64,000 nucleotides of DNA from Dehalococcoidia bacterium. GTDB taxonomy: Bacteria; Chloroflexota; Dehalococcoidia; Lucifugimonadales; UBA3495. This document shows, piece after piece, positions 2,078 to 28,114 of this stretch (positions within the stretch are counted from its first letter, which is position 1; every line of letters starts with the position of its first letter). The stretch spans positions 916,015 to 980,014 of the forward strand of contig CBDBNP010000006.1 in assembly GCA_965207865.1 (NCBI GenBank). The letters run 5' to 3'. The translations under genes and the position numbers were made by a program. The notes beneath the pieces are model-generated. The model had not been told where the DNA came from and did not search any database. It saw only the letters and a program-made list of their open reading frames with translations.

Positions 2078-2842
2078 CTACAAATCCCGTTGGGTTCCTG
2101 CTGGCCAGTCAACTTCCCGCATAGCCCAGCGAGCATTATCAATCTGTCCGAGGGCTCCAAGATAGACTGCGCCATCGGAGAAAAGATACGCTGTCGTTGT
2201 GAACAACTTCGCATTACCGGGGAGGGAAGCTCGGTCTGTCGTCCATCCATTGGAAGCTCCCGTCACATCCCATCTGTCAGGACCCGAAGTTGCCCACTGA
2301 ACGGAATTTGGAGCAACCGGCCAAACTTCCGCTTCCACGTAGAGGTCACACCATCCCACCCCGCCAGCGGGAAGACCCCTAACCTCGCCACCTCCCTCCT
2401 CGTATCCGATTTCTAGCATCCTGCACCATCTCAGGACTTCGGAGGGTGCTCGGAATATTGGGATACTATTCAGGGCGGGAGGCAACACTGAACCCTGGCG
2501 AGGAGGGCCAGGCTGGTACAAAGCGAAGTCATCTAGAATGCCGAAGTCGTTGGGGTCAGGCGGCCCTACATGGACCTCGCCCGCATATCGCGCGCCGTAG
2601 AGAGCCCCAGCAAAGAACGCTGTGTCAGGGTTGGACAAGGGCAGATACAATATAGTTGAGCTTCCGTCCACGAGTTCGTGTAATTCGTCCATCTGGGTGG
2701 TCGCTGGCGCCCTTACCAGCATTCCACCTGACACCAAGGCCGTCGTCACACCCGGCAACCACGTATCGCCGGGATCCCCCCGACGATGCACACGTAACGA
2801 GACATTGATCCCTCCTCTTGAACGTCGCTCCGCTGTTCTCAA
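2078..2842 (-). CDS. Hypothetical protein, possibly degenerate
   Basis: 254-codon ORF with globular-looking composition in a lower-GC stretch; no motif recognised; start uncertain. Confidence 0.4.
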   Translation of the reverse strand: MRTAERRSRGGINVSLRVHRRGDPGDTWLPGVTTALVSGGMLVRAPATTQMDELHELVDGSSTILYLPLSNPDTAFFAGALYGARYAGEVHVGPPDPNDFGILDDFALYQPGPPRQGSVLPPALNSIPIFRAPSEVLRWCRMLEIGYEEGGGEVRGLPAGGVGWCDLYVEAEVWPVAPNSVQWATSGPDRWDVTGASNGWTTDRASLPGNAKLFTTTAYLFSDGAVYLGALGQIDNARWAMREVDWPAGTQRDL

Positions 2843-4323
2843 ACGACCGGAGCGTGTGGCATCTGCGGCCTGGTTAATGCTCTCCAGCAGCTATGCCGCA
2901 CTAGGGATGGAAGGGTCAGTAGTTGCTGATCAACTCCAACCCGAGCGTGAGGATACGGCGAAGCAGGTCAACCGCTACGCAGGTGAATCCAATAGGGAAA
3001 GGGGCGCAGGGAGTGCCGTGCTGTCTCCGGTTGCCACCTCCTAGATTCAGTCCGTGGGGCAGGGAATCCGCCTTGGGTCGGGATACCAGGTGAGGCGCAC
3101 GGTGCGCCTGGGTTAACGTCCCTCGCGGACGCCCATCGAGAGAGCGCGATGCTCAATCCTCCTGAGACGGTCCGGCATGGGCGCCCGTTCGGAGAGCTAG
3201 GCTCAATCCTATGCGGCCATTCCCGGGTCCTGGGACGGGACCCTCCAGTTTTCTCGGCAGGAATCACTGGCAAAAGCCCGATCACGTAATCCAGTATCCG
3301 GCACCACGAGGCCGGATGCAATGCTCTTGCCGCCATCGCCCCCCAAATTGTTCGCAAAACTCTAAGCACGGGCCCGCGACGGCGTTGACCACCATCAATG
3401 CCACCGGCAAGGCGTCGTCATTATCCTCACCTCAGGACGCTACCGCCGCCACAGCCCGGAGTGACCCACCGCCGAGCCCGGCGCAGCATTTCCAGACAGG
3501 CGCGCCTTTGCCGGAGTTTGGCCAGATCCCCCCAACTGCCAGTACAACTGCTCGTTGCGGTCCAGGACCCAAGGCGGCGCCGTCTCTGGGGCAAGATCAT
3601 CAGCCGCAGGTCCGGCCGGGCGCCGCCGCGTGGGGTTCTGGCCCCGTAGCTCCGTTGTACGATCCTCAACCCCCTGCAAACTTGTCGTTTTCGGTTGGGG
3701 CCTGCCACCCGGGGCAGTTCCGACTACCGCAAACTTGTTGTTTTCCAACGTGGGCCTTGCTCGCTAGCCGCAACCGGCCCTTGACAGAAAATGTTCGCTG
3801 TTTCGGTCCGGTAGGGGGTGATTTACCCGCGACTCAGCTTTGAAACTGCCCGCATCTGCAAACTTGCGTCCAAACCACTTTCCTGTACAACCCCCTGACC
3901 TCGCAACGTTTTTTCTCAGCATTGTCCTGGAGATTGGATCGAGGTATCAGGGGAGGCGCCGGGACCACTACATCAATGAAATCCCTTTCGAGGGATAACG
4001 CTAGGTTCTCACGGCCCGCAGACTGGCCGCTGAACACCACATAGCCATAGGCAACGGCGGGGAATCGGTACGCAATCCCGCCAAGACCGGGCAGAAGGAG
4101 CGAAAGGGAGACTGAAAAGACGGGGTGTGTAGGGACCCGCACTCGTGCGGCCCCCTGTGAGAGGTTCTTTCCGGCGTCCCGGTGACGCACACTCAATAGC
4201 AGAGCCGGAGACGATGCCGGTGGCCCAATCCCACCCATACGTAACCGAGGTGAACGACATGTTCCTGAATCCGATGACCCAGCTCGACACCGAGGCCCAA
4301 TCACACAACGCCAACGAGAGGCT

Positions 4324-4557: not shown

Positions 4558-4758
4558 CTGCCAGCTAAACCGCTTATGAACCAGTGCCGCGTTCGATACT
4601 TTCCCCGACATCCCGTGGTCCCCGCCCATCCTTGCGCGGCTCGCCTGTTACCACAAAACCCGCCCGAATGTAATCCCTTGCAAGACCTTATGTTCGACCA
4701 ATTTCTCCCGGACAATGGAGTGTTAGACCGTCGCCCAAGGAGAAATGCTTTGACCATA

Positions 4759-6771: not shown

Positions 6772-7223
6772 ATACAACTTTGCCGCGCCGGGGATTTCCT
6801 GTAGGGGTGGCCCAACGGGCACGATTGGACAAAATTCCTGCAACTTGCCGCCATCGTGTCCCGTTACATCCCCGCCACTGCAATGTGTTGCAGGGCCGAT
6901 GCGTCAGGCCGCCACCGCAGAGATACCATACTCAACCAACCGGGTATGCAATCCAGGTATGAACGCCAGCGACAAACACAGGGCCACGGAATCTGTCCGA
7001 TAGGGACAAGATTGACGTCGAGCGTGTCCAAAAGGGTCAGCGGAGCCGTTCCCGTGGTTTCCCATAGTTCCCAAAAGGGAAGTCGTTACCATTCCCGTGT
7101 CTGCGTGCAACAGGTCGAAAGGGTGCGAAATGTTGCAGGTTCCGGACCCGGCGGACACCCTCGCCATTCTTCACCGACGGCGGGCCGAGCGCTGGTTGCC
7201 CGGTGATATCCAGTAAGACAACG

Positions 7224-7232
7224 TGGTATAAT
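7224..7232 (+). promoter_or_regulatory. Extended -10 promoter (TGnTATAAT) for the RHH-LSR operon
   Basis: TGGTATAAT just upstream of the AAGGAG RBS and ATG 7252. Confidence 0.55.
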
Positions 7233-7251
7233 GGCCGCACAAGGAGTGCAC

Positions 7252-7479
7252 ATGGCCCCCATCATATCCAGGAACACCGAGACCGTCACGTTCTCATTGC
7301 CACCGGCGATGGCCCAGAGCCTGCGCCATGTGGCGAAGGAGGAGGAGCGCACCGTTAGCGAACTGCTTCGGGAGGCCATCCGCCTGTACATGGAGGAGCG
7401 GGAGTGGCGCGTGAAGGAGCGGATGCAGCGGCGGTCCCGCCGGGCGAACGCGGCTGAGACTACGGGAGACGAGACATGA
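7252..7479 (+). CDS. CopG/RHH DNA-binding protein
   Basis: TVTFSLPPAMAQSLRHVAKEEERTVSELLREAIRLY; AAGGAG RBS. Confidence 0.85.
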   Translation: MAPIISRNTETVTFSLPPAMAQSLRHVAKEEERTVSELLREAIRLYMEEREWRVKERMQRRSRRANAAETTGDET

Positions 7480-7502
7480 ACGAGAGCAGCAAAGGAGGCG
7501 AG

Positions 7503-16374: not shown

Positions 16375-16411
16375 GTGGGTTGCCTCCGTCTATCGGAATC
16401 GGTATTGCGTG

Positions 16412-18652
16412 CTAATGGCGTGGTCCGGGCCGCCACTCGATTACCGCCGTTTCCTCGGGCGTGGCCTCGATGCGAACGGGAAAGCGGTTGCCCCTGGCCA
16501 ACAGCAACCCGTCGCCCCTGGGACAGGAAAGCAGCCAGCGCTGCAGTTCCTCGGGCAGGTCGAAAGCCTCGCCCACGGTGCTGACGGCGGCGGCGTCCTG
16601 CTGCAGCAGCAGCTTGAAAGCGGCGTTCTGGAGCAGGGCGCGACCGCTGTGTCCGGTGATAGCCCGGGAGGAATCCTCGGAAAGGAGGTCCTGCACGTCC
16701 TGGGTGATGAACTGCAACCCCAGGCGGTGCTTCCTGGCGCGCTTGGCCATCGAGACCATGAACGCGGCCCCCTCGGGGTGCTGCATGATCGACCACACCT
16801 CGTCCACCACCAGCAGTCTCGGTCGGGGGTCCTGGGCTGCGGCAGCCCACACCGTCTCGGTGCAGACCATCGCAGCGGCTGGTCTCAGTTCCGGCTCCAG
16901 CAGGTGCAGGTCGAATACGGTGACCAGGGCCTCTCGGGCCAGCAGGTCGTCGCCCTCGTCGGAGAGCAGGTCCCGCAGGCTGCCGGTGGCGAAGGGCCGC
17001 AGCAGGTGGGCGATGTCCGGTGTCTCTCCCTCCAGGTAGGCGTAGAAATCGCGGAAGCCGGTGCGCTCCCTACGCTCCGCGTAGTAGCCGGCCAGTGCGT
17101 GGTCCAGAGAGGAGCGCCGTTCCGCGCTGAGCCTTTCCCCCACCATCACCTCGATCAACCGCCGCAGGCTGCCGATGCGCTGGAGCAACTCCTCGCTGTC
17201 GCCCCGGTCGATTACGAACGGATTCATGCCCTGGCCGGGAACTCCGGGGGACAGGACGCGGCCGCCGGCGGCGCGGGCCATGTCGGTGTACTCGCCCTCC
17301 GGGTCGATGATGTAGGCCCGCACTCCCCGGCACAGCCCACGCAGGACGCCCAGCTTGGTGGCGAACGACTTGCCCGAGCCAGAGCGGGCCAACACCGCCG
17401 TGTTGGCGTTCAGGTGAGTCCCGTCGAAGGGGTCGTAGACGATGGGGGCGCAGGCCCGCAGGTCGATGCCGTAGAGCGTGCCGCTGCGGGTGTCCAGGTC
17501 CGGCGGTGAGAAGGGGAACAGCCTCGCCAGGGATGACGTATCCAGGGTCCGCCACACCGCCACTGCGTTCAGGCCCAGGGGCAGGGTGGACAGCAGCCCC
17601 TCCCTTTGCCGGAAGGCCAGGCTGTCCAGCTTGCCCAGCGTGGCGGCGAAGTGAGCTCTTGCCCTCTGGGTCAGGTCCCTGAGCGTATCGGCATCGTCGG
17701 CGTGCAGTGTCACCGACAACGATGCGTGGAACAGCCTTTCCCGGCCCCGCTGCACCTCGTCGCGCAGGCGGCTAACGTCCTCCAGGGCGATCTCCGCCTC
17801 GGAGGACATGCTGCGGCCCCGCTTGAAGGACAGGGACTGGGCCGACTCGAAGCGGACCTTCTGCCATTCCAGGGTGCGGGCCGCCTGCTCCGTGGGGATG
17901 GCTCCCAAGTGTACCGACAGGTCCATGGGCGCCCCGGCGGCCATCAGTCCCTGCAAAAACCCGGGGGCCAGGGAGCGCGGCCACTTGCCCAGGTGGAGCG
18001 AGCGAACCAGGTGGTTGCCGATGCGGATGTCGCGCCGGTTTACCTCTATGTCAGTCGCGGCGTTTTCGTCCCTCTCGTTGGGCGAGCCGCCAAGGGCCGA
18101 GGCGAAGAGCAGCAACTTGAGGGAGTCGCCGGAAAGGGGAAATACGCCGAGGCCGGCGCGCAGCAGCAGGCCGCGCAGTTCGTCGGCCCGGGTGTGCTCG
18201 CAGACGGCGTAGAACCGCCGGTCCAGGATGCCCTCACGCGTTTCCAGCGTTGTCAGCAGCCGTCCCAGGCTGTCGGCGGCGTCCCTGGTCTGCTGCGGCA
18301 GGTCCTCGGGCTGGGACGCCGTCAGGTTGTTGCGGAGGGCCTGCAGCACCGGCGGGTGCTGCCTTACCAGCAGTTGCACCGGGAAGTCCACGGCGTTTAG
18401 GGAACCGGCGAAGGACCCCAGCTTGGGCTCGTCCAGCTCCAACCCCATCACCTCCAGCACCGCCAGCTTCACCCCGTCCAGGCGCACCGGTCCGTCGTCC
18501 TCCAGGTGGGACAGCATGAAAAACAGCGGCAGCGGGGCCGGAGGCTTGGGTTCGGGAGCCGCCTGCCCCGTCTCCGCGTCGTTGGTCTCGCCGGATTGGC
18601 CGTTTCCGGCCCGGCCCGGCATCTTTGCCATATCTGGCAATTTCAGTTTCAT
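16412..18652 (-). CDS. virB4: VirB4-like conjugation ATPase
   Basis: NANTAVLARSGSGKS, IIDPEGEY, LLVVDEVW, KRARKH...FITQ. Confidence 0.92.
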   Translation of the reverse strand: MKLKLPDMAKMPGRAGNGQSGETNDAETGQAAPEPKPPAPLPLFFMLSHLEDDGPVRLDGVKLAVLEVMGLELDEPKLGSFAGSLNAVDFPVQLLVRQHPPVLQALRNNLTASQPEDLPQQTRDAADSLGRLLTTLETREGILDRRFYAVCEHTRADELRGLLLRAGLGVFPLSGDSLKLLLFASALGGSPNERDENAATDIEVNRRDIRIGNHLVRSLHLGKWPRSLAPGFLQGLMAAGAPMDLSVHLGAIPTEQAARTLEWQKVRFESAQSLSFKRGRSMSSEAEIALEDVSRLRDEVQRGRERLFHASLSVTLHADDADTLRDLTQRARAHFAATLGKLDSLAFRQREGLLSTLPLGLNAVAVWRTLDTSSLARLFPFSPPDLDTRSGTLYGIDLRACAPIVYDPFDGTHLNANTAVLARSGSGKSFATKLGVLRGLCRGVRAYIIDPEGEYTDMARAAGGRVLSPGVPGQGMNPFVIDRGDSEELLQRIGSLRRLIEVMVGERLSAERRSSLDHALAGYYAERRERTGFRDFYAYLEGETPDIAHLLRPFATGSLRDLLSDEGDDLLAREALVTVFDLHLLEPELRPAAAMVCTETVWAAAAQDPRPRLLVVDEVWSIMQHPEGAAFMVSMAKRARKHRLGLQFITQDVQDLLSEDSSRAITGHSGRALLQNAAFKLLLQQDAAAVSTVGEAFDLPEELQRWLLSCPRGDGLLLARGNRFPVRIEATPEETAVIEWRPGPRH

Positions 18653-18673
18653 AATGTGTGTCTCCTATTCTTG

Positions 18674-18997
18674 CTACAGGCTGGGACTGATTCCGCCCAC
18701 CAGCAGCAGGGTTATGGTCTTGGCCAGCAGCACCACAACGAGGCCAACCACGGCCATCAGCACTGCGTTCCTGGCCCGGCCACGGCCCTCGCCCTCGGCC
18801 CCCTCGGCCATCAGCACGAAACCGGCCCAGACGATGGCGAAAAAGCACAGTCCGGCGGCAACGGCGGCCATGGCGGTGAGCACGGCGTCGAAGGACGCAA
18901 GCATCGTGGCCGCCGCTGCCGCTTTCTCCTCCGGCGTTGCGGCGATGAGAGATGCGGCCAAGCAGGCCAATACCAGGAGCTGTAGGGCACGGCGCAT
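18674..18997 (-). CDS. TrbC/VirB2-like pilin
   Basis: Signal peptide and two hydrophobic helices separated by GRARNA. Confidence 0.7.
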   Translation of the reverse strand: MRRALQLLVLACLAASLIAATPEEKAAAAATMLASFDAVLTAMAAVAAGLCFFAIVWAGFVLMAEGAEGEGRGRARNAVLMAVVGLVVVLLAKTITLLLVGGISPSL

Positions 18998-20979
18998 CAG
19001 GGAAACTCCCGCCGGTCTGACCGGTTGAACAGTTCTTTTGTCTCGTCATCGCTCAGGGGTCGGTGTGTAACCGGCTCGGGCGTCGGCGTTGGGTCCGGCA
19101 GAGCCAGGGTCGCGAACGCGACATCAGCAGCCAGGGTGGTGGACATCGTTACGGTCTCGCTGGTGGTCCTGGCGAGGGCGTCCCGCTGCACCACCTCGGC
19201 CCGGACGTGCTCGGGATGGTCGATTTCCAGCGTCACGTCCTGCTGCACCGTCTCGCTGGGGACGGACAAGGTGGCGCCGATGGTGTAGTTCACCACCTGC
19301 CCGTCAGGGGGCAGGGCCACGGACACGGTTCTGCTGACGTAGCGACTCACGCCGGGACGCAGCAGGCTGACCGTCTCAGTGCGTCGTTCGACCCGCTGGG
19401 GGTGATGCGTGAGCTGCACCAGGGGAGGCTGCGGCACCGACAGGGAGGCCGAGAGCGACGCCTCCATCGCAATCTCGTGCACCGTCTCTCCTGCGGCCAC
19501 GGGCAGACTGAAACTGGTCTCGCCGTCCTGAACGAATGCGGCGCTGGCGCTTGCACCGCCCGCGCTCACGCTGACGGTGCCGGTAACGGCGGCAACCGTT
19601 GCCGGCAGCAGTGCGTCCACCGACTGACGGTGGTGTCCGGCGGCCATCGTCACCTCGACCTGTTCCTCCAATTCCTCGGCGCACTCCGAGACGATTACGC
19701 CGGTCAGGCTGCCGGGCGTCCAGCCCAGGGTGTCCATCCGCAGCGAGCAGGCGTGGCCCTCGACCGCCGGCATTGGATGGGGCAGCTGGCGTCCCTTGAG
19801 GGCCAGGGCCCCGGTCTGCCCCAAACCGTCCTGCCAGGCGAGGGTGAAGGACGGGTGGGGTCCGTCCAGGGAGAGGCCGAATCTCTCGGTCTCTCCCTGC
19901 TCCAGGATGTCGTGGACGAAGAAGGTCAGCACCCGACCGCTGTCGCCGCCGTATGACCGGACGTCCAACTTCAGCTCCGTAGCGGCCCTGACGGTGACCA
20001 TGGCCAGGGTGCCGGTCACGGTGATTTCCTCCATATAGAGTCTGCGGCCGGTTACCGGCTCGGGAGGCGGATACCCGATCTCGTCCAGCCGCCAGGCGTC
20101 GTCGGACCACGGGCCGTCGGCCAGGGCCAATGCCGGTAAGGTGGCGATTGCCAGGGCCAGCGCAGCCAGAGATACGGACAGGCGCCGGTGCTTGCGACTC
20201 CGACTTTCCTTGTCCTTGGGAGTCTTTCTCTTGTCGCCGTCCCCGCGACTGCGGCGCTTGCCGAACCAGACGTGGGCGCGGAATGGGGGACGGCCCCTCC
20301 CACGTGCCGCCTTGACCGCCCGGCCTGCGCCCGAAAGCGCTTTCCTTATCAGTAGCCGATGAGGTTGCGGTTTGGATTGCGGCAAAATCGGGATCTCGGT
20401 GCTCGGCCGTCCGAGCAGGGCAGGGAACTTGGGGCGAGCCGCCTTGACCGCCCGGCCTGCGCCGGACAGCCCTTTCCTTATCAGCAACCGCAGAGGGTCG
20501 TGTCCGACCTCCGCTCCGGCGGAGGTCTCGGATTGAACCTGTTCCGCTGGACGCGCAGGGCGAATGCGCGACGCTCCCGCCCTTGCCAGAACGGGTACAA
20601 CCTGGCTCGCTCCCTTCACTACTTGCAGGACCGGGTTGGGCCTGGGCTCTGCCGGTTCGGGAGCGGGGACCTCGGATCGCACCAGCTCCGATATAGTTCC
20701 GGCGTAGCGCCGGGCGCCCAAGTTGAACTTCAGCAGGTCGGCGGCCACCAACGGCAGCCCACGGCCTCCCACCCTGCCCACGGTCATGGCTATGCCCAGG
20801 ATGCCCAGCAGGACCGCCACGCCCAAGCGGAACTCAGACGGCCCCAGGGGAAAGTAGAGGTAGGCGCCGTAGGCCACGGCGCACACCGCCACCACCGCCA
20901 CGATCTGGGGGAAGGTGAGCCACAGCAGCACCCGGTCCTCGGCCTGCACGTGGGTCGGTACCTCGTGCTCTCTCATCAC
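18997..20979 (-). CDS. PrgI/VirB3-like membrane domain fused to a large beta-rich extracellular region
   Basis: HEVPTHVQAEDRVLLWLTFPQ plus two TMs; basic linker, third hydrophobic segment, beta-rich C-terminus. Confidence 0.7.
   Translation of the reverse strand: MMREHEVPTHVQAEDRVLLWLTFPQIVAVVAVCAVAYGAYLYFPLGPSEFRLGVAVLLGILGIAMTVGRVGGRGLPLVAADLLKFNLGARRYAGTISELVRSEVPAPEPAEPRPNPVLQVVKGASQVVPVLARAGASRIRPARPAEQVQSETSAGAEVGHDPLRLLIRKGLSGAGRAVKAARPKFPALLGRPSTEIPILPQSKPQPHRLLIRKALSGAGRAVKAARGRGRPPFRAHVWFGKRRSRGDGDKRKTPKDKESRSRKHRRLSVSLAALALAIATLPALALADGPWSDDAWRLDEIGYPPPEPVTGRRLYMEEITVTGTLAMVTVRAATELKLDVRSYGGDSGRVLTFFVHDILEQGETERFGLSLDGPHPSFTLAWQDGLGQTGALALKGRQLPHPMPAVEGHACSLRMDTLGWTPGSLTGVIVSECAEELEEQVEVTMAAGHHRQSVDALLPATVAAVTGTVSVSAGGASASAAFVQDGETSFSLPVAAGETVHEIAMEASLSASLSVPQPPLVQLTHHPQRVERRTETVSLLRPGVSRYVSRTVSVALPPDGQVVNYTIGATLSVPSETVQQDVTLEIDHPEHVRAEVVQRDALARTTSETVTMSTTLAADVAFATLALPDPTPTPEPVTHRPLSDDETKELFNRSDRREFP
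20306..20490. repeat. Two ~53-bp direct repeats encoding RLLIRK(G/A)LSGAGRAVKAAR
   Basis: 20306-20358 and 20438-20490. Confidence 0.85.
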
Positions 20980-20986
20980 TTCTCCT

Positions 20987-21028
20987 TTTTCTAGGTTTTG
21001 TTCTCTAGGTCTTGTTTTCTAGGTCTTG
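20987..21028. repeat. Three tandem 14-bp repeats TTYTCTAGGTYTTG
   Basis: TTTTCTAGGTTTTG TTCTCTAGGTCTTG TTTTCTAGGTCTTG between the pilin stop and the next RBS. Confidence 0.85.
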
Positions 21029-21303
21029 GTTGGCGGCGGGGTGGGATCGGGCACGCTGGGGTCCACGGTGTTGCCCACGACGGCGCCCATCACCAGTTCC
21101 ACCACGCCGTAGGCCACCATGGCCAGCACGATTCCGGCCAAAGCGGTCATCATGGCGCTCTTACCGCGCTCCATCTGGTTGGGGGCGCCGGAAGCGGTGA
21201 GGTAGAGGTAGGCCCCGTAGATGAAGTAGCCGACGCCCACGACTCCCACCAGGCCCAGCAGGATGCCCACCAGGTTGGATATGGTCTGTGTCAGGTCTCC
21301 CAT
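21019..21303 (-). CDS. TrbC/VirB2-like pilin
   Basis: YFIYGAYLYLTASGAPNQMERGKSAMMTALAGIVL; AAAGGAG RBS. Confidence 0.85.
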   Translation of the reverse strand: MGDLTQTISNLVGILLGLVGVVGVGYFIYGAYLYLTASGAPNQMERGKSAMMTALAGIVLAMVAYGVVELVMGAVVGNTVDPSVPDPTPPPTKT

Positions 21304-21421
21304 AAATCGTTCTCCTTTCGCTTTTCTGTTCCGTGTTTCTGTCATTGCCCTTGTAGGTAAGTCCCGGGTCTCTACTGGCACATGGCTTTCACCTCTTTCA
21401 GTGATGCAGCAGCGGTCGCGG

Positions 21422-22378
21422 TCAGGGTCCCTGGCTCCTGGGCGTGGGGCCCGCTTGGGCGGCGGTGGTGGCGGTCTGCGCCGCCGAATTGGCGGTTCCC
21501 GCTGCCGCCGATGCCGCTCCTGTTGCCACCGCTGCAGCAGCCCCGACCGGTCCGGCACCGCCCAGCACCGCCAGGGCCCGTCCCGAGCGCATCAGAGCGC
21601 TGGGCAGGGACATCCCGAAGTACAGGGTGTGCAGCCAGGCGTCGAAGGTGCCGTGGTTGCCCAACATCGAGGGGATGCGGGTGGCCAGGTAGACGAAGGC
21701 CAGGGACATCAGCAGCTTCCAGATCAGGTCCTGGGCCGGCTCGAAGACCGCTATGGGCGCCAGGTCGCTGAGAAACCCGAACCCCAGGGCCAGGGCGATG
21801 ATCTGCACCGCCTGCTGGAACACCGTGGTCATGAACAGCCGGAGCCAGTGGCGTCCCCAGCCCGCCGTGTGGGGCAGGATCCACAGCCCCAGGGCGATGG
21901 GCGCCAAGGCGATCAGGATGTCGATCAGCGCCAGGCGCAGGATCATCTGCACCAGCAGGTAGAGGACGAAAAACCCGTAGACCAGGTAGATCAGGGCCAG
22001 GAGCAGCACCAGGCCTACTCCGCCCGAGGCCACTGCCCTCAGCATCGTGTCAAGGGACGCCCGGAGCAGGTCCCCGGCGGTAACGCCCAGCGACACGGTG
22101 ATGAAACCGGAGACGGCGTCGGCCACGTCGATGACCAAGGCGCACCACCACAGGGACGAGGCGGCGGCGGCCAGGCCCAGCACCAAACGGGGCACCATCT
22201 CCCGCCAGCCCGACTGGTGCCGGCCCAGGTGCTCCTGGACGATGAAGCTGAGTCCCATCCAGCCCAGGATCACCACCAGGGCGCCGGAGGCCACGGCCCA
22301 GACCACGGTCCAGGCCAGCCTGACCGATTCATGGGCGTAGGTGAGTTCTGCGGGGGTGCCGGTGAGGATGTCGCCCAT
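21422..22378 (-). CDS. VirB6/TrbL-like polytopic membrane protein
   Basis: Multiple TMs, RLALIDILIALAPIALGLWILP...W, Ala-rich tail. Confidence 0.8.
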   Translation of the reverse strand: MGDILTGTPAELTYAHESVRLAWTVVWAVASGALVVILGWMGLSFIVQEHLGRHQSGWREMVPRLVLGLAAAASSLWWCALVIDVADAVSGFITVSLGVTAGDLLRASLDTMLRAVASGGVGLVLLLALIYLVYGFFVLYLLVQMILRLALIDILIALAPIALGLWILPHTAGWGRHWLRLFMTTVFQQAVQIIALALGFGFLSDLAPIAVFEPAQDLIWKLLMSLAFVYLATRIPSMLGNHGTFDAWLHTLYFGMSLPSALMRSGRALAVLGGAGPVGAAAAVATGAASAAAGTANSAAQTATTAAQAGPTPRSQGP

Positions 22379-22383
22379 GAGCG

Positions 22384-22989
22384 CTACCCTCCCCGGCAGT
22401 TGCTGGAGTCGGAGCCGGTGGCCTGCTCCACCACGCCGCAGAGGGCGCCGTGGACGCCCTCGATGGCCCAGCGGGCCATGGCCCTTCCCCAGCGGTCGGG
22501 CTCCAGGGACTGGAGCACCTTGTCCCACAGCTTGCCCGACTGGTGCTCGGGTACCAGGGCGTAGTAGGCCCAGGGGTCGCCGCCGCCGGGGTTCTTGACC
22601 AGGAGGGCCAGCAGGTAGGACTGGTCGGGGTCGAGAGCGGGCTGCCCGTCCAGGGCGGGGTACTCGATGGTGTACTCCCAGCCGTCGGATAGCTCTTTGT
22701 CGCCTCCCTGGACGCGGTAGGTGGCGGTGAGCCAGTCGCCGCTGTCGGGGTGGCGGACGGCGTAGAACAGCACGTCGACGGGGCGGCTGAAGACGGGACG
22801 GGCGATGAACCGGCCGTCGTCCTTTCGCTCGACGACCTGCAGGTCCTCGTTGACGAAGACCGGAGGCTGGTCGGCGGGAGTCTGGGCCAGGGCGACGCCG
22901 CCAGCGGGCAGGGCCGGAATGGCCGCCAGCAGCAACGCCACCAGGAGCAGCAAGGCCCGGCGCAGGGGCAAGGGTTTCGGTATTCGCAT
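22384..22989 (-). CDS. Secreted protein, first gene of the transfer operon
   Basis: Signal peptide LLLLVALLLAA...ALA-Q; GAGGTG RBS. Confidence 0.7.
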   Translation of the reverse strand: MRIPKPLPLRRALLLLVALLLAAIPALPAGGVALAQTPADQPPVFVNEDLQVVERKDDGRFIARPVFSRPVDVLFYAVRHPDSGDWLTATYRVQGGDKELSDGWEYTIEYPALDGQPALDPDQSYLLALLVKNPGGGDPWAYYALVPEHQSGKLWDKVLQSLEPDRWGRAMARWAIEGVHGALCGVVEQATGSDSSNCRGG

Positions 22990-23387
22990 CAAGTCGTTCA
23001 CCTCTCTCTGGTCTGGGCGACGGCGGTTTCGCCAGCGCCGCCAGAGAGTGTGAACAACCCGGCCCCTCCGCATAACCTCCCATAGGGGGCAGCACACATG
23101 AACGGTCTTTCAGGGCCTTACGTGGTCGGCCCTACCCGTGATGTCATTGGGGTGTACAGGGATTTGCGTTTTGTCGGCAGACGAGAGGGGAGGCCGTGTT
23201 GAACCTGAATCGGGGTGAAATCGGCCCTCTACAGGACGTATCCAGTCAACACTTTTCGTAAGTCCCCGTTCCACGGTCTGTGTTCACGGGCCGTAGCTGG
23301 AGTGTGCATTCTTGTCCGCTGGAAACCGGGGGAACCCGTACAAGTCCCCAGGCTGAAATGAACATTTTTGTACGCGGAGGCGTGATC

Positions 23388-24227
23388 GTGGCGGAGGAAC
23401 AGCCGGGCATCGACCGGAGCAGGAGCATCGAGGACCTGCACCACCTGAGGCTGATGGCGCTCTTGGACGAGCAGGTGCGGGACAAGGGAGCAAGGCGGGC
23501 GGCGGAGGATCTGGGGGTGGACCACCGGACGTTGGCGTCGAGCCTGGAGTCAGGGACGCTGTCCCGGCGGATGCGGGTTGCACTGGACCGGGCGCTGTTG
23601 TCCGGGGAGGGTTCGCCGGCCCGGGAACAGAGGGAACGCAACGACCAACTGGCCGGGCGGCTGGACGGCGTGGAGGAAAGGGTGGGTGGCCTGGAACAGG
23701 ACGTGAGCAAGGGCCTGTCCGCCGTGCAGGGCGAGGTCCGGCAGCTCAGGACGGAACAGGAGCAGTCTGTGCGCCGGGTCGAGGAGCGGCTGGACCGGGT
23801 GGAGAGTGGCGGCGGCTCGTCTGGTTTGGCGGCGCCGGACGGACCTGGACGCCGTTCGCCGCGCCAGCCCCAGCGGCAATTCCCCGACCTGGTGACCCTG
23901 GACCCCACTGCTGACGACGCTGCGGTATTCGGCGCTGCTTGGCCATTGGTCCGGGAGTGGCGGGAACTCAAGGGCACCCACCCCGACCGGGGACAGGGAC
24001 TGGAATGGCTGCGGGCGGAAGAACGGTTTCTTACGGTGGAACTGGCACTGCTGGAGGAGCACGGCCTGACCTTGCCGCCGGAGACCTATCCCCTCAGGGG
24101 CCTGGACCGTAGCGGACAAGTGAACTGGCGGCGCAAGGCGTTGGAGAGCACGCAAAGAGCTCGGAAACGGAGGGAGTGGCTGCTGCGGCTCAGGCGGGCG
24201 GTGACGCTGAGGATATGGCGCGGTTAG
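23388..24227 (+). CDS. Hypothetical protein with HTH and coiled coil
   Basis: ARRAAEDLGVDHRTLASSL HTH-like motif, heptad region; GGAGG RBS before GTG (alternative ATG 23358). Confidence 0.7.
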   Translation: MAEEQPGIDRSRSIEDLHHLRLMALLDEQVRDKGARRAAEDLGVDHRTLASSLESGTLSRRMRVALDRALLSGEGSPAREQRERNDQLAGRLDGVEERVGGLEQDVSKGLSAVQGEVRQLRTEQEQSVRRVEERLDRVESGGGSSGLAAPDGPGRRSPRQPQRQFPDLVTLDPTADDAAVFGAAWPLVREWRELKGTHPDRGQGLEWLRAEERFLTVELALLEEHGLTLPPETYPLRGLDRSGQVNWRRKALESTQRARKRREWLLRLRRAVTLRIWRG

Positions 24228-24339
24228 CCGCTTTGGCCTGTCAACTGTAGTCAACTTTTGTCCACACTTTGCCGAATGGGACTTCCAGGGGCTACCCAAC
24301 GAGGCCTGGCACAGGAGAAAATTACACCGTTGTCAGGCT

Positions 24340-25240
24340 TTTCCAGGTTTCCCGCCCTAGAAATCTGGGGGTCCCCCCTCAGCCCGGGCTTTGCCAAGAG
24401 GTTGGCCCACGAGGGAATGCTGCCGGAGCGGGATGTTCAAGTGCCCCGCAGGCAGCGCGGGCCGGTGCACGGGGTGTCTAAGTCCCTCGTTCCCGGCCCA
24501 GTCCAACGGGTTGGAGTGTTTAAGTCCTTCTCCCGTTGGGCAGTCCGGCGGTTGGAGTGTTTAAGTCCTTCTTCCGCCGGGCACCGTTCAGCGGTCTGGA
24601 GCTGACTCCTCCAGTCGCTGGGCACCCGTCCGGTGGCAGGAGTTTGTCTTTCCCGCGACTGGACGACGGGGACGGAGCGTTTGGCCACGCATCGTTCTCA
24701 TCTAGGCTGAGGCGTCCGCGGGTTCCGCTCGCGGCGCCCCGGCCCGAATCACCAGGTAACCAATCCCAAGGTGGCAACCCAATTCAAGGCGCGGAATCCC
24801 TGCCCAACGGACTGAAATAGGAGGTTCGGCTGGACCCAGGACGGTAGACCGGAACCCTACCCACGTACTCATAGGCGGAGCGCCCTAGCGCTTCGAACTG
24901 TCTTCACATTGCGGTTGGAGTGGCACAAGCCTCCAGCCGCCTCCCCATGCCTGCGGCATAGCTGCTGATTGACAGCTGCAGACCGCAGGTCTCACACGCT
25001 CCGGTCGGCCAGTGGCGGCGAACCGGACGTTTACTGTCGCAACGCGGTTGCCGCTGACGGGACCGCGTTCCTCGTCGTTTCCCCCACTTTCCCCTTGCAG
25101 CAGCTCCCAGGCTCGGCGTTGACGCTGGACAACACCCTGGCGTAGCTGCGTCTCTCTCCAATCCCCAGATTGTCTTCTTCCCTTGTGGATTCAAACCCAG
25201 GGCGGAGTGCACCCGTCGTCGGAGCGGTCTTTTTCCTCAA
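24340..25240 (+). ncRNA. Candidate large structured RNA or ssDNA element (oriT, single-strand origin or promoter) ahead of the leading-region operon
   Basis: About 1 kb without a credible CDS; nearly contiguous hairpins, several with G-T(U) pairs valid only on the + strand. Confidence 0.4.
24419..24582 (+). repeat. Array of four ~41-nt stem-loops with conserved loop TGTYYAAGT and variable, covarying stems
   Basis: Loop motifs start at 24434, 24475, 24517 and 24558; each is closed by its own inverted repeat. Confidence 0.85.
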
Positions 25241-25268
25241 CGTGATTCACCATTTTAAGGAGGTGCGT

Positions 25269-25574
25269 ATGAGCATCGCAGAAAGGTTCACCCAAATCAG
25301 GAGTCTCGCGGTCAAGGTCGTGGAGTTCATCAAGCGGCACCCACGGGCGTCAATCGCGGCGGGCGTTGCCCTGCTCATCCTGGGGCCGCTGCTCACCGGG
25401 GCTGGTGGCGGGGCATTCTTTCTCAACCTAGTCGGCCTGGGCATTGTCGCCCTTATCGTCCGGCGGATCATGCTGGCCAATGAGAGGCGGCGGGCGGCGC
25501 AGGCGCGGCAGGCCAATCGACAGTGCATATGCCATAGACAGCAACAAACTCAGCAACAGAGAGGTACGCCATGA
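25269..25574 (+). CDS. Small 2-TM membrane protein
   Basis: TAAGGAGGT RBS; two hydrophobic helices. Confidence 0.75.
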   Translation: MSIAERFTQIRSLAVKVVEFIKRHPRASIAAGVALLILGPLLTGAGGGAFFLNLVGLGIVALIVRRIMLANERRRAAQARQANRQCICHRQQQTQQQRGTP

Positions 25575-26029
25575 CGACAGTTACCCTGGACTCCCCATCC
25601 ACTACAGGGAGTCTCGAATTTCTGGTTGACCGGCTGCTGGCTACCCTTTTCCGGGACAAACCGGAGCAGGGGGTACCGGCGTCCGGCTTGGTCAAGGCGG
25701 TCCACGAGGCCCGGCGTCTCAGGCAGTCGGGCGACCTGGACGGGGCGCTGGAGGCATTCAACGGAATTGATATCGCAGACACCCAGGACTCCCAACTGCG
25801 GTGGCTCTACTCCGAATGGCTGGACATCGCCCGGCGCCGGTTCACTGGCTGCGGGGCAATGATCTACAGCCCCGCGGCCGGCCGGGCGGCGGTGCTAGTT
25901 CCTACTGCCGACGGCAACGGAAAGGCGCTGGAAGTTGCGGTGGTCCTGGGAATGCGCTGGCCATTGGGCAAGACGGTCTCCCAACGCAGCTTGCGGGGGC
26001 TGAAACCACTGGTGAAAGGGGATTCATGA
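25571..26029 (+). CDS. Hypothetical protein
   Basis: ATGA-coupled on both sides; GAGGT RBS. Confidence 0.7.
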   Translation: MTTVTLDSPSTTGSLEFLVDRLLATLFRDKPEQGVPASGLVKAVHEARRLRQSGDLDGALEAFNGIDIADTQDSQLRWLYSEWLDIARRRFTGCGAMIYSPAAGRAAVLVPTADGNGKALEVAVVLGMRWPLGKTVSQRSLRGLKPLVKGDS

Positions 26030-27078
26030 TGGTCGCAGCCCCCGCCACCGTGAACATCGCGGAACTCAAGGCTCGCCACCCTCTGGGCGACGCGGTGGAG
26101 GTCGCAGGCATTGCCCTGCGCGGCAAAGGGCGCGTCCGGCAGGGAGTCTGCCCCTTTCACGAGGAAACGGAGGGCAGTTTCACAGTGTACTCCGACACCG
26201 AGAGATTCTACTGTTTCGGCTGCGGCGCCGGTGGAGACGTGCTGGATTTCGTGGGCCGCATGGAGGGTCTGACACTGCCGGAGACGATACGACGGCTGGA
26301 CGGCGATGGTTCCGGGCCGGTTGCCACGGCGCCGTCGATGCCAAGAGCTACTGCACCTGCGCCTATGGTTCCGCCCCGCGATCCCGCCTTGCTGACGGCG
26401 GCGGTGCGGTTCTACGCCAGTCAGCTCTGGCGCAGCCAAGTTGCCCGGGATTACCTGGCCTCCCGGGGCATCGGAGTCGACGCCGCTATGCGGCTGGGTC
26501 TGGGATACGCGCCGGGCCACGGCCTGCGGGAGTACCTTGACTTGCTCGGTTTCAACTTGGACAGGCAGCGGGACTCGGGGTTGTTCCTGGAGCAGGGAAG
26601 GGAACGGTTCGCCGGAATGATCACTGTTCCCGACATGGTCGCGGGCCGTGTCCGGTGGCTCACCGGGCGAGCGGTGGCGGCTAACACCAAGCCCCGGTTT
26701 CAGGCGATGCCCGGCCCCAAGCCGGTGCCGGGCCTGGCGGCTCTTGATCCCGCGCGCCCTTACGTCATCGTTACGGAAGGTGTCTTTGACTACCTGACTC
26801 TGGCGAGTTGGGGCTACTCCGCCTGCGCAGCCCTGGGCACCCAGGGCATGGACAAGGTGGCGGCGGCGTTCCGGGGCTGCCCACGGGTGTTCCTGGCCTT
26901 CGACAACGATGGAGCTGGCTATGAGGCCGCCGGTAGTCTCAAGGAACTGCTGGGCCGCCGTGGCGCCGTGGTAAACCTGCCCCGTGGCATTTCCGACGTG
27001 AGCGAACTGGCCAACCTGCCCCACGGCAAAATGCTTTTCAACCGCCTGCTGGCTCAGGCAGCCCGAAACGCCCGCTAG
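26026..27078 (+). CDS. DNA primase-like protein (CHC2 zinc finger plus Toprim)
   Basis: CPFHEE...FYCFGC; VTEGVFD; AFDNDGAG. Confidence 0.92.
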   Translation: MMVAAPATVNIAELKARHPLGDAVEVAGIALRGKGRVRQGVCPFHEETEGSFTVYSDTERFYCFGCGAGGDVLDFVGRMEGLTLPETIRRLDGDGSGPVATAPSMPRATAPAPMVPPRDPALLTAAVRFYASQLWRSQVARDYLASRGIGVDAAMRLGLGYAPGHGLREYLDLLGFNLDRQRDSGLFLEQGRERFAGMITVPDMVAGRVRWLTGRAVAANTKPRFQAMPGPKPVPGLAALDPARPYVIVTEGVFDYLTLASWGYSACAALGTQGMDKVAAAFRGCPRVFLAFDNDGAGYEAAGSLKELLGRRGAVVNLPRGISDVSELANLPHGKMLFNRLLAQAARNAR

Positions 27079-27250: not shown

Positions 27251-28114
27251 ATGTCCAACGAGAACGGCAACGGCAACCACCACAGGAACGGCCACAGCCC
27301 CAACGGCCACGTCGACGTCGACGTGAATGGCAACGGCAACTCCAACGGCCACCGGCGCAACGGCCAGATCCCCGCCAACGGCGTCGCCAAGAACGGCAAC
27401 GGGCACCACGGAGCCGAGTCCATCCCCGCCCACGACCTCCTCTGGGACTCCCTGCCGGCCAGCGTCACCGACAAGCTGGCCCAGCCCCTGGACGCCAGCC
27501 TGGTATCCCAGCGCAAGGGCCGGGGCAACCGCTCCGTCTCCTACCTGGAGGGCCGCACCGTCATCGACCAAGCCAACCGGATATTCGGCCACGGCGGTTG
27601 GGGCCACGAGGTCGTCGGAGACGTGATCCTGCGGGAGCTGGACCAGGTGAACGCCCAGACCGGCGAGGTCAAGCGCATCCGGGCCTACTCCGCCACGGTG
27701 AAGGTCACCGTCCCCGGCGCAACTCCCCGCACCGACGTGGGGTTCCAGCCGGTGGCCGAAGAGACGGTGGAGGGCCATGAGACGGCGTTCAAGGGCGCGG
27801 TCACCGACGGGCTCAAGCGGGCGCTCCGGACCTTCGGCGCCCAGTTCGGCAACTCCCTCTACGGCGACGTTGCGGGCCAGCCGGGAGGCGGCGCCGGGGA
27901 CACGCTGGCCCCGGCCCTGCGCAAGACCCTGCTGGACCTGGGCGTAAGCCAGGGTTTCGACGAGGAACGGGTGCGGCAGGCGGTGCGGGGCCAGACGGGC
28001 AAGGACCTGGACGAGCTGCCCGCCTCTGAGCTGACGCCCCTTGTCGAGCGCGCCGCCCGCAAGGTGCAGCAGCGGCAGGACGCTGAAGGCCAGGGCAGCG
28101 ACGGCGAACAGTAG
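27251..28114 (+). CDS. Rad52/Sak-family single-strand annealing protein with N/G/H-rich N-terminus
   Basis: SYLEGRTVIDQANRIFGHGGW...KGAVTDGLKRALRTFGAQFGNSLY. Confidence 0.9.
   Translation: MSNENGNGNHHRNGHSPNGHVDVDVNGNGNSNGHRRNGQIPANGVAKNGNGHHGAESIPAHDLLWDSLPASVTDKLAQPLDASLVSQRKGRGNRSVSYLEGRTVIDQANRIFGHGGWGHEVVGDVILRELDQVNAQTGEVKRIRAYSATVKVTVPGATPRTDVGFQPVAEETVEGHETAFKGAVTDGLKRALRTFGAQFGNSLYGDVAGQPGGGAGDTLAPALRKTLLDLGVSQGFDEERVRQAVRGQTGKDLDELPASELTPLVERAARKVQQRQDAEGQGSDGEQ

What the first reader, a model, noticed from the sequence alone, without database searches (positions are those of the whole stretch)
24419..24582. Phased array of four stem-loops with a conserved 9-nt loop and fully covarying stems
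Seen: four adjacent ~41-nt hairpins. Unit 1 GCTGCC..GCGGG-ATGTTCAAGTGC-CCCGC.GGCAGC; unit 2 GGGCCGG..GGGG-TGTCTAAGT-CCC..CCGGCCC; unit 3 GTCCAACGGG..GGAG-TGTTTAAGT-CC..CCCGTTGGGC; unit 4 GTCCGGCGG..GGAG-TGTTTAAGT-CC..CCGCCGGGC. The TGTYYAAGT motif starts at 24434, 24475, 24517 and 24558 (period 41-42 bp, about four helical turns). The outer stems differ in sequence but stay paired, and G-T(U) pairs work only on the + strand. This is the reverse of a CRISPR array: the repeat is the loop and the variable part is self-complementary. A weaker fifth unit may lie near 24376-24415. Inference: a multivalent docking platform read as RNA or transferred ssDNA (protein sponge, relaxase or primase loading site), possibly also read as phased iterons in dsDNA. 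The upstream HTH/coiled-coil gene (23388-24227) is a candidate partner.
Basis: partly seen in the sequence, partly recalled or inferred. Interest (0 to 1): 0.85.

Follow-up and report, generated by a model that had tools for sequence, protein, structure and literature searches.

The report
Hairpin-repeat leader RNA of Dehalococcoidia ICEs
The four hairpins are real and form the expandable middle of a much larger, conserved, strand-specific folded noncoding element, most likely an RNA, that follows a regulator gene in a family of conjugative elements of Dehalococcoidia and matches no described RNA family.

Summary

They are not a stand-alone array. They are units H1-H4 of a conserved noncoding element of about 420 nt (24328-24748, + strand). 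That element lies in a stretch of about 950 nt without a gene, between a conserved -10 box and the next start codon at 25269.

The element follows a homologue of the HTH/coiled-coil gene in 79 of 80 loci fetched from Dehalococcoidia/Chloroflexota genomes. It lies beside a type IV secretion operon with a MOBC-type (Replic_Relax) relaxase candidate.

The structure is supported by covariation. About 93-95% of cells pair, against 33-64% when partners are slid, and double changes exceed all 500 shuffles. Only the middle of the outer stems covaries. The stem ends and an inner GGAG/CUUC helix with a kept G.U pair are conserved.

Unit number varies from 1 to 6, and loop sequence differs by clade. Rfam has no match.

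My best reading is part of a long structured leader or noncoding RNA with repeated protein-binding hairpins (0.5). A folded form of one DNA strand (second-strand origin or transfer origin) is not excluded (0.2). No RNA data exist.

The parts
23358..24227 (+). Gene of the HTH/coiled-coil protein ('p23280'). The real start is probably the ATG at 23358, not the GTG at 23280. Cro/XRE-like N-terminal HTH, long coiled coil, disordered linker, C-terminal helical domain. No Pfam family.
   Evidence: Frames upstream of about codon 20 carry stops in relatives. Alignment A2. AF2 model with pLDDT about 90 for residues 21-80. Foldseek PDB search: no hit at E<=0.001, and the best small matches are Cro proteins. 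Pfam finds only coiled-coil noise. The Atlas gives weak XRE/Cro leads at 0.78.
24240..24265 (+). Three short direct repeats at an exact 10-bp period: GTCAAC at 24240 and 24250, GTCCAC at 24260. Candidate dsDNA protein-binding sites just after the stop codon.
   Evidence: Read. Related loci carry TGAAC/TTAAC-type repeats at a 9-11 nt period in 26 of 79 loci, against a shuffle mean of 0.5 and maximum of 1.
24317..24322 (+). -10-like hexamer GAAAAT (A at position 2, T at position 6). Predicted transcription start is about 24328-24331.
   Evidence: A hexamer with A2 and T6 ends exactly 13 nt before GGCTTT in 71 of 79 loci. A full sigma-70-like promoter (>=9 of 12) occurs in 15 of 79, against a shuffle mean of 0.7 (max 3) and 0 on the reverse complement.
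24343..24368 (+). P1: hairpin or inverted repeat CCAGGTTTC-N8-GAAATCTGG. Nearly invariant in sequence across the family. Also present in a second ('type II') leader family.
   Evidence: All P1 pairs are unchanged in at least 15 of 19 sequences. The P1-only module is found at 8 further places in the own genome.
24376..24416 (+). P2: CCCTC...GAGGG helix enclosing a variable inner hairpin.
   Evidence: RNAalifold pairs 70-74/127-131 and 80-83/121-124, and inner-hairpin pairs 89-96 and 90-95 with double changes.
24419..24456 (+). Unit H1: outer stem GCTGCC/GGCAGC, inner stem GCGGG/CCCGC, loop ATGTTCAAGTGC.
   Evidence: Orthologous covariation in 83 sequences: pair 10-45 is CG 71, GC 10, AU 1; pair 19-35 is AU 64, GC 15.
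24459..24499 (+). Unit H2: outer stem GGGCCGG/CCCGGCCC, inner CGGGG/CCCTCG, loop TGTCTAAGT.
   Evidence: Pair 58-96 is GC 40, AU 32. Pair 69-89 is AU 55, GC 21. Pair 54-100 is GU 38, GC 21, AU 15. The kept G.U pair 68-90 is GU 65 of 83.
24501..24541 (+). Unit H3: GTCCAACGGG/CCCGTTGGGC, inner GGAG/CTTC, loop TGTTTAAGTC. Absent from 9 of the 19 close relatives aligned.
24543..24582 (+). Unit H4: GTCCGGCGG/CCGCCGGGC, inner GGAG/CTTC, loop TGTTTAAGTC.
24586..24744 (+). H5-H8: four further conserved hairpins. H5 24586-24623 has loop CTGACTC. H6 is 24627-24666. H7 is about 24667-24699. H8 24705-24744 has no T-run after it.
   Evidence: RNAalifold consensus with double changes in H5 (pairs 316-342, 317-341, 319-339, 321-338) and H6 (359-384 to 361-382).
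24875..25055 (+). Conserved 'tail' modules of the same noncoding stretch, including hairpin CATGCCTGCGGCATAGCTG...CAGCTGCAGACCGCAGG.
   Evidence: blastn of 24750-25200 matches this part in more than 50 fetched loci and after type II leaders in the own genome.
25257..25574 (+). First gene after the element: SD AAGGAGG at 25257-25263, ATG at 25269, 101-aa small hydrophobic protein. It is followed by a DnaG-like primase (25801-27078) and a Rad52/22 annealing protein (27251-28114).
2805..3322 (-). 'Type II' leader on the opposite strand: promoter-like TTGCAT-17-GATACT, a P1-like hairpin (3278-3260), and further hairpins. It shares the 5' and tail modules with the studied element but has no hairpin array.

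Best explanation
The four hairpins are repeat units inside a long structured RNA. This RNA is either a leader or a stand-alone noncoding RNA.

Proposed transcript. It runs rightwards from a conserved promoter just downstream of the regulator gene p23280. It starts near 24328. It contains P1, P2, an array of 41-45-nt hairpin units (here H1-H4, plus the related H5 and H6), two more hairpins and tail modules. In this copy it runs about 950 nt to the first gene of an 'establishment' operon: small membrane protein, DnaG-like primase, Rad52-like annealing protein.

Unit anatomy. Each unit has a 9-10-bp outer stem and a small internal loop. Next comes a conserved inner helix, 5'-GGAG/CUUC-3', with a kept G.U pair. 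On top sits a clade-specific loop: UGUUYAAGUC, UGAUAAGCC, UUUGAC-GNNG-GUC or UUGAUCG.

Inferred mechanism. The units are repeated binding sites for one protein. Copy number, which varies from 1 to 6 among elements, would tune avidity. The bound leader would control read-through, stability or translation of the downstream operon. This resembles the large cis-acting RNAs at the start of operons in other conjugative elements, such as conAn2 of pLS20 and the put RNAs of phage HK022 (put is recalled, not read here).

Shown: the structure, its strand, its conservation, its synteny and promoter-like signals.
Inferred: transcription, protein binding and the regulatory outcome.
For: 1. The structure is real and strand-specific.
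- RNAalifold on 19 copies gives 112 pairs, 20 with compensatory changes.
- H1+H2 in 83 sequences: 92.8% of cells paired against 33-60% when partners are slid. There are 84 double-change cells against 32.4 in shuffles (0 of 500 as high). The covariation score is 0.228 against 0.169 (0 of 500).
- GTCC-type units: 94.6% paired against 43-64%, and 21 double-change cells against 7.0 (0 of 500).
- Wobble pairs are G.U, almost never A.C.

2. A transcription signal sits at a fixed distance.
- A -10 hexamer with A2 and T6 lies exactly 13 nt before the first conserved base in 71 of 79 loci.
- Full promoters occur in 15 of 79, against 0.7 in shuffles and 0 on the reverse strand.
- The distant clade and the type II leaders read TTCACA/TTGCAT-17-TAATAA/GATACT (read by eye).

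3. Strand and orientation agree with the flanking genes. The folded strand is the sense strand of that promoter, of p23280, and of the next gene with a strong SD and ATG at 25269.

4. The 5' module (-10 box, P1, P2-like) recurs at 8 other places in the own genome, on either strand. In the window it occurs on the opposite strand at 3322-2805. This fits leaders of separate transcription units better than sites on a single transferred strand.

5. The strand asymmetry of folding is large with RNA energies (-124.5 against -103.4) and small with DNA energies (-57.7 against -53.8).

6. The conserved inner-helix G.U pair (GU 65 of 83 and 32 of 43) is typical of an RNA recognition element.

7. There is a precedent. 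[quoted passage not shown] They also carry long structured leaders (PMC13401043: abstract read).
Against: - There is no expression evidence of any kind.
- The -35 region is weak in most loci: 64 of 79 fail the 9-of-12 criterion. The window's own region gives no hit in the standard promoter scan.
- No terminator follows the element.
- A terminator-like hairpin between p23280 and the -10 box is seen in only 12 of 79 loci, against 2.5 in shuffles. The element may therefore be co-transcribed with p23280 rather than have its own start.
- P1 is conserved in sequence without covariation. That fits a DNA operator or nick-region hairpin as well as an RNA site.
- 10-bp phased direct repeats next to inverted repeats are also the published anatomy of a MOBC-type transfer origin (passages of PMC12857230), and the element's relaxase candidate is MOBC-like.
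- As DNA the + strand still folds better than shuffles (z -3.75).
- No binding protein is identified.
- The units are simple hairpins. I saw no long-range tertiary pairing.
Confidence: 0.5

Rival explanations
1. The hairpins fold in single-stranded DNA of the strand displaced or transferred during conjugation or rolling-circle replication of the element. They would act as a single-strand origin or priming signal (sso/ssi), or as part of an elaborate MOBC-type transfer origin: direct repeats as the relaxase binding site, hairpins around the nick.
For: - Strand-specific structure is equally expected for an orientation-specific sso (passages of PMC4595007).
- The element lies beside the T4SS operon. 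The relaxase candidate at 12095-13723 carries Replic_Relax, and PF13814 corresponds to CONJscan MobC (table passage of PMC5357655).
- The MOBC relaxase TraX binds five direct repeats 70-120 bp from the nick and has an N-terminal winged HTH (passages of PMC12857230). Here, 10-bp phased direct repeats lie 100 nt upstream of the hairpins.
- P1 is invariant in sequence.
- The + strand folds better than shuffles with DNA energies too (z -3.75).
- A primase and a Rad52-like protein lie downstream in this copy.
Against: - The P1/P2 module occurs on both strands within 21 kb of the window and at 8 extra genomic sites. Whether the two window copies belong to one element is not settled.
- With DNA energies, H1 and H2 are not in the minimum-energy fold, and the two strands differ by only 3.9 kcal/mol.
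- G.T would have to be tolerated or selected at many positions.
- A primase is downstream in only 26 of 80 loci.
- If the + strand were transferred from a nick at the element, the downstream genes would enter as sense strand, so the hairpins could not act as an F-type ssDNA promoter for them (inference from recalled knowledge of Frpo).
- The conserved -10 box at fixed spacing has no role in this reading.
Confidence: 0.2
2. The repeats act as double-stranded DNA: phased binding sites (iterons or operators) for p23280 or a replication initiator, four helical turns apart.
For: - The conserved core GGAGTGTTYAAGTCC recurs at 41-42 bp.
- In some clades, 8 nt of the core (AGTGTTCA) equals the reverse complement of the direct repeat upstream (seen by eye).
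- p23280 has a Cro/XRE-like HTH.
Against: - dsDNA binding does not explain the compensatory changes in flanking stems or the G.U-only asymmetry.
- The loop core differs between clades while the upstream repeat does not follow it. For example, L055 and L082 keep GAACACTTTGG but have loop UGAUAAGCC.
- The period ranges from 35 to 51 nt.
Confidence: 0.05
3. A tolerated, self-expanding hairpin minisatellite with no function of its own, carried along inside a functional leader.
For: Unit number varies from 1 to 6, and whole units are gained or lost between close relatives. Short versions with one unit precede the same downstream genes.
Against: - The units keep pairing through compensatory change across several families of the class.
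- The inner helix with its G.U pair is conserved whatever the loop type.
- The positional identity of H1 and H2 is kept in 83 sequences.
Confidence: 0.1

Closest known systems
conAn bipartite antitermination system of pLS20 (ConAn1 protein plus conAn2 RNA)
   Same: In both, a conjugative element of a monoderm bacterium carries a protein gene directly followed by a large (about 300-400 nt) noncoding region. In pLS20 that region acts in cis as RNA at the start of a long operon, and stem-loops and a GC-rich part are needed (PMC8191782: abstract and section 22 read).
   Different: - p23280 has no PF17362 (pXO2-34) domain.
- The RNA here heads a primase/Rad52 operon divergent from the T4SS genes, not the conjugation operon.
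- conAn2 has no tandem array of like hairpins.
- No antitermination has been tested here.
Single-strand origins (ICEBs1 sso1, ssoT/ssoA of rolling-circle plasmids)
   Same: Noncoding, orientation-specific, several stem-loops, located in a conjugative element (PMC4595007, passages read).
   Different: - No sequence likeness was tested or seen.
- The sso described there has three dissimilar stem-loops, not repeated units.
- A promoter-like -10 box precedes this element, and its 5' module recurs on both strands.
MOBC-type transfer origin (oriT of pAD1, relaxase TraX)
   Same: A Replic_Relax/MOBC-like relaxase with N-terminal winged HTH domains. Short direct repeats at about one helical turn lie near inverted repeats (passages of PMC12857230).
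   Different: The nick site is unknown here. The hairpin region is far larger (about 400 nt, 9-10 hairpins) and covaries on one strand only. Details of the pAD1 oriT beyond the review's passages are recalled, and the primary papers were not held.
Protein-sponge sRNAs with repeated hairpins (CsrB/RsmZ type; recalled, no paper read)
   Same: Many like hairpins in tandem, with variable copy number, presenting one short conserved motif.
   Different: There the GGA motif is in the loops. Here GGAG is base-paired in the inner helix. This element is also not a free-standing small RNA with a terminator.

Membership tests
Any Rfam 15 family | Covariance-model score at or above the family's gathering threshold | tested here: not met
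   There were 0 matches in the whole 64-kb window at gathering thresholds. In 24000-25200 at E<=10, the 8 matches were all far below threshold; the best was Atu_C6 at 22.1 bits against a threshold of 60.
conAn (ConAn1/conAn2) | Protein partner carries the ConAn1 processivity domain (Pfam pXO2-34, PF17362) | tested here: not met
   Pfam scan of 20 p23280 homologues at E<=1: PF17362 is not among the 25 families listed, and only coiled-coil noise and weak HTH hits appear.
conAn (ConAn1/conAn2) | RNA element directly downstream of the protein gene lets RNA polymerase read through terminators | not testable with these tools
   The position is met in 79 of 80 loci. The activity needs a reporter assay.
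Single-strand origin (sso) | Orientation-specific conversion of ssDNA to dsDNA, with stem-loops formed in the displaced strand | not testable with these tools
   Strand-specific hairpins are present. With DNA energies the + strand scores z -3.75 against -2.63 for the - strand. The function was not assayed.
MOBC-type oriT | Direct repeats bound by the relaxase, and a nick site in or near an inverted repeat | tested here: inconclusive
   Three 10-bp phased repeats lie at 24240-24265. Phased repeats occur in 26 of 79 loci against 0.5 in shuffles. The nick site and binding are unknown.
CRISPR array or its 'reverse' | Constant repeats alternating with hypervariable unique segments | tested here: not met
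   Stem sequences are conserved by position (H1 GCUGCC, H2 GGGCCG, later units GUCCnnnGG) across 83 and 43 sequences. Only 3 of 9 outer pairs vary on both sides.
Dispersed palindromic repeats (REP/MITE-like) | Many copies scattered through intergenic regions of the genome | tested here: not met
   GGRGTGTYYAAGTCC occurs 9 times in the 4.68-Mb genome. Eight lie inside three copies of the element. One, at C8:213054, looks like coding sequence with no tRNA there. The whole-element profile finds only element copies.
Protein-coding sequence | Open frame conserved, with indels in multiples of three | tested here: not met
   Whole units of 39-42 nt are gained or lost, and there are 1-2 nt indels throughout alignment A1. 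The overlapping ORFs of 57-115 aa are not conserved.

The most novel reading that the evidence does not exclude
The array is an expandable RNA scaffold. One to six or more copies of a hairpin with a conserved G.U-containing GGAG/CUUC helix would load several copies of one protein onto the nascent leader of the element's establishment operon. That protein could be encoded by the element (possibly the C-terminal domain of p23280) or by the host. Loading would make transcription termination-resistant, or would act as a decoy for a host factor when the element enters a new cell. This would be a new kind of multivalent riboregulator of conjugative elements, unrelated in sequence and architecture to nut, put, EAR, LoaP leaders or conAn.
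Probability: 0.15. Interest if true: 0.8.

Novelty: new variant of a known kind. Interest (0 to 1): 0.6.

Why it matters
Dehalococcoidia, including SAR202-type lineages, are abundant and mostly uncultured, and nothing is known about how their mobile elements are controlled.

This genome alone carries about ten relatives of the element. The noncoding element recurs in 28 of 401 sampled genomes of the class. It is therefore a widespread, strongly conserved, structured module of horizontal gene transfer in this group.

It offers a well-defined candidate for a new RNA family: about 100 sequences, clear covariation, and natural variants with 1-6 units. It has a built-in experiment, namely unit number against output.

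If it works as RNA, it extends the idea that conjugative elements of monoderm bacteria rely on large cis-acting RNAs. If it works as ssDNA, it would be the first second-strand or transfer origin described for a MOBC-type element outside the Bacillota.

Tried and rejected
Searches and tests that led nowhere:
- Rfam: no family.
- Plasmid collection, blastn with 24230-25800: no match. tblastn with VirB4 gave only distant hits, at most 34.5% identity, the best to Streptomyces and Embleya records.
- Public sequencing runs: no RNA holder listed. Three rows of one study hold the DNA. I laid no reads, because contigs of DNA runs cannot show a transcript.
- Standard promoter/terminator scan of 23000-26000: 0 and 0.
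- p23280: no Pfam family, no significant PDB fold match, only weak Atlas leads.
- Prior description of the element: 'Dehalococcoidia' + 'integrative and conjugative element' + 'type IV secretion' gave 0 papers. 'SAR202' + 'conjugative' gave 6 papers, of which I saw only the listing, and none is about such an element by title. Supplements were not consulted.

Ideas considered and dropped:
- tRNA T-arm mimicry. The loop G-UUCAAGU-C equals a legitimate T-loop, found in 1 host tRNA by aragorn. However, the covariation favours the GGAG/CUUC register, and other clades have unrelated loops.
- Shared recognition of the upstream direct repeats and the loops, based on the 8-nt match AGTGTTCA. The repeat does not change where the loop type changes.
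- The conserved 'ACGGACTGA...AGGAGGT' 3' module as a ribosome-binding site. No open frame follows it in the window, and it is found near the element in few loci.
- The ATG at 2805 (- strand) after the type II leader opens only a 19-codon frame. I make no claim about that leader's gene.
- Unit-level alignment A3 put outer stems out of register. I did not use it for counts and built no covariance model.
Full report
WHAT IS THERE

The window is 60-70% G+C and has no tRNA gene.

Positions 12095-23095 (- strand) encode conjugation functions:
- a relaxase candidate with two winged-HTH regions and a Replic_Relax domain;
- a coupling protein;
- a VirB4-like ATPase;
- a large protein with a weak, sub-threshold PrgI match at its N-terminus;
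- a TrbL/VirB6-like protein.

PF13814 Replic_Relax corresponds to the CONJscan MobC (MOBC) relaxase class (table passage of PMC5357655).

Divergent from this operon lies the gene called here p23280. It is followed by about 1 kb without a gene. Next come a 101-aa hydrophobic protein (SD AAGGAGG, ATG at 25269), a DnaG-like primase (25801-27078) and a Rad52/22-family protein (27251-28114). Large serine recombinases lie at 7476-10654. So this is an integrative conjugative element.

The host genome (8 contigs, 4.68 Mb) holds about ten relatives of the element. The coupling protein has 10 tblastn places and VirB4 has 6.

Record titles of the 80 related loci name Dehalococcoidia, Chloroflexota or SAR202 metagenome-assembled genomes. 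One is binned as Acidimicrobiia.

THE OBSERVATION

The motif count is 5 in the window against 0.66 expected. The + strand folds far better than shuffles (z -4.37) and better than the - strand (z -2.19). Tandem Repeats Finder sees only the last two units as a 41-nt repeat, with 86% matches.

IT IS PART OF SOMETHING LARGER

blastn and a profile search show that the conserved block runs from about 24328 to 24748.

From the 5' end the block contains:
- a -10-like box;
- P1, a nearly invariant hairpin CCAGGTTTC-N8-GAAAYCTGG;
- P2;
- the hairpin units;
- four more hairpins, H5-H8.

Further conserved 'tail' modules lie at about 24875-25055.

The own genome has several versions:
- four full copies;
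- three short copies with P1, P2 and a single unit, which precede homologues of the same small protein and primase;
- eight sites of a second, 'type II' family. These share only the promoter-like box, a P1-like hairpin and tail modules. One lies in the window on the - strand (3322-2805).

DISTRIBUTION AND SYNTENY

- Among relatives, 17 of 61 genomes match, own genome included: 11 of 36 in the same genus and 5 of 24 other families of the order.
- In an even draw from the class, 28 of 401 genomes match, again own genome included.
- Searching with an alignment of p23280 homologues gave 172 encoding places, of which 80 were fetched.
- In 79 of the 80, the element starts about 100 nt after the gene on the same strand. 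The exception, L110, has another gene there.
- Upstream, a TrbL homologue on the opposite strand is seen in 62 of 80. Downstream, a primase is seen in only 26 of 80.

STRUCTURE AND COVARIATION

RNAalifold on 19 close copies predicts a chain of 9-10 hairpins: 112 pairs, 20 with compensatory changes.

For H1+H2 in 83 distinct sequences spanning all clades:
- 92.8% of cells form standard pairs, against 33-60% with slid partners.
- 84 cells show changes on both sides, against 32.4 +/- 8.0 in shuffles (0 of 500).
- The measures that count pairs or pair types do not exceed the shuffles (157 of 500 and 53 of 500).

So the support rests on a limited set of strongly covarying pairs: 10-45, 19-35, 54-100, 58-96 and 69-89.

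For 43 units of the type of the finding's units 3 and 4:
- 94.6% of cells pair, against 43-64%.
- There are 21 double changes, against 7.0 (0 of 500).
- The double changes are confined to the three middle pairs of the outer stem.

All units share the inner helix GGAG/CUUC, with a G.U pair kept in 65 of 83 and 32 of 43 sequences.

Loops fall into clade-specific types:
- UGUUYAAGU(C);
- UGAUAAG(C);
- UUGAUCG;
- in the most distant clade, UUUGAC-GNNG-GUC, which adds a 3-bp helix and a tetraloop.

By a minimum-energy parse, 74 of 79 elements have 1-6 core-bearing units: counts 5, 17, 19, 17, 14 and 2 for one to six units.

RNA OR DNA?

No RNA data exist. The indirect evidence favours RNA:
1. A hexamer with A at position 2 and T at position 6 lies at a fixed 13 nt before the first conserved base in 71 of 79 loci. 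Full promoter matches are enriched: 15 of 79 against 0.7, and none on the other strand. The distant clade and the type II leaders show good -35/-10 pairs (by eye).
2. The folded strand is the sense strand of this promoter and of the flanking genes.
3. The same 5' module occurs on either strand at other sites, each time pointing the same way as its own promoter-like box.
4. The strand asymmetry is 21 kcal/mol with RNA energies and 3.9 kcal/mol with DNA energies. With DNA energies, H1 and H2 are not in the best fold.
5. G.U is near-neutral or conserved at many pairs.

Evidence against RNA:
- The -35 is weak in most loci.
- The window itself fails the standard promoter scan.
- There is no terminator.
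- P1 is conserved in sequence, not by covariation.
- The neighbourhood resembles a MOBC transfer origin: 10-bp phased direct repeats at 24240-24265, with phased repeats in 26 of 79 loci against 0.5 in shuffles. In the MOBC case the relaxase binds direct repeats 70-120 bp from its nick (passages of PMC12857230).

I put the RNA reading at about 0.65 in all. Within that, 0.5 is for the specific leader/platform model. The ssDNA reading gets 0.2.

THE PARTNER GENE

p23280 probably starts at 23358. Its model has a confident N-terminal helical HTH domain, a 64-residue coiled-coil helix, a disordered linker and a C-terminal helical domain. There is no Pfam family and no significant PDB match; the nearest small hits are Cro proteins. 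Atlas leads at 0.78 point to XRE/Cro regulators.

Its position, divergent from the transfer operon, suggests a master regulator of the element. This is an inference from the layout of pLS20 and ICEBs1, which I recall rather than read. Whether it touches the RNA is unknown.

COMPARISON WITH KNOWN SYSTEMS

The nearest working analogue is conAn of pLS20. There, a protein gene is followed by a large RNA element that makes RNA polymerase ignore terminators, and the system is widespread in conjugative elements of Bacillota (PMC8191782). The 456-nt structured leader of the same operon is another analogue (PMC13401043, abstract only).

Membership in conAn fails, because p23280 has no ConAn1 domain, and the architecture differs. 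sso and MOBC oriT remain as rivals. No Rfam family matches. I found no paper on conjugative elements of Dehalococcoidia.

VERDICT

This is a real, conserved and structured noncoding element that is much larger than reported. It is a new candidate family with an unusual expandable hairpin array. Its function is unproven.

Noticed in passing
whole genome G000: The 4.68-Mb genome carries about ten relatives of this conjugative or mobilisable element. The coupling protein has 10 tblastn places, the relaxase-like proteins have 17 or more, and VirB4 has 6. This is an unusual load for one genome.
   Followed up: partly
window 2805-3322, - strand: A second ('type II') structured leader family has a good promoter-like TTGCAT-17-GATACT and a P1-like hairpin but no hairpin array. 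There are 8 copies in the genome. The ATG with a strong SD at 2805 opens only a 19-codon frame, so its downstream gene is unclear.
   Followed up: partly
window 24240-24265: Three direct repeats (GTCAAC, GTCAAC, GTCCAC) sit at an exact 10-bp period right after the p23280 stop codon. Relatives carry TGAAC/TTAAC-type repeats at the same place. In some clades their reverse complement shares AGTGTTCA with the hairpin loops.
   Followed up: partly
window 24434-24442 and equivalents: The loop G-UUCAAGU-C of the near clade is identical to a legitimate tRNA T-loop with its closing G-C pair. One host tRNA has GTTCAAGTC. On top of about 13 bp of stacked stems this looks like a tRNA minihelix. Other clades lack it.
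   Followed up: partly
window 7476-10654: Two large serine recombinase genes appear convergent (7476-9107 on +, 10654-8723 on -), and their predicted 3' ends overlap by about 385 nt. The ORF 9104-10429 (+) has no Pfam family and lies wholly opposite the - strand ORF 8723-10654, so it may be that gene's shadow.
   Followed up: no
window 4576-6771: A second Replic_Relax protein (731 aa, about 31% identical to the 12095 relaxase candidate) has several HTH regions. It lies next to the recombinases and may belong to a separate mobilisable module.
   Followed up: no
window 42060-48434 (-) and 56467-61587 (+): Very long open frames of 2124 and 1706 aa were not examined. G+C drops to 0.52-0.59 at 52-56 kb and 60-64 kb, which may mark an end of the element.
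   Followed up: no
L073 about 5075-7276; L094 about 5193-5879: In two related loci the element is split: the 5' part and the 3' part of the profile match lie 0.7-2.2 kb apart. This suggests an insertion inside the hairpin array.
   Followed up: no
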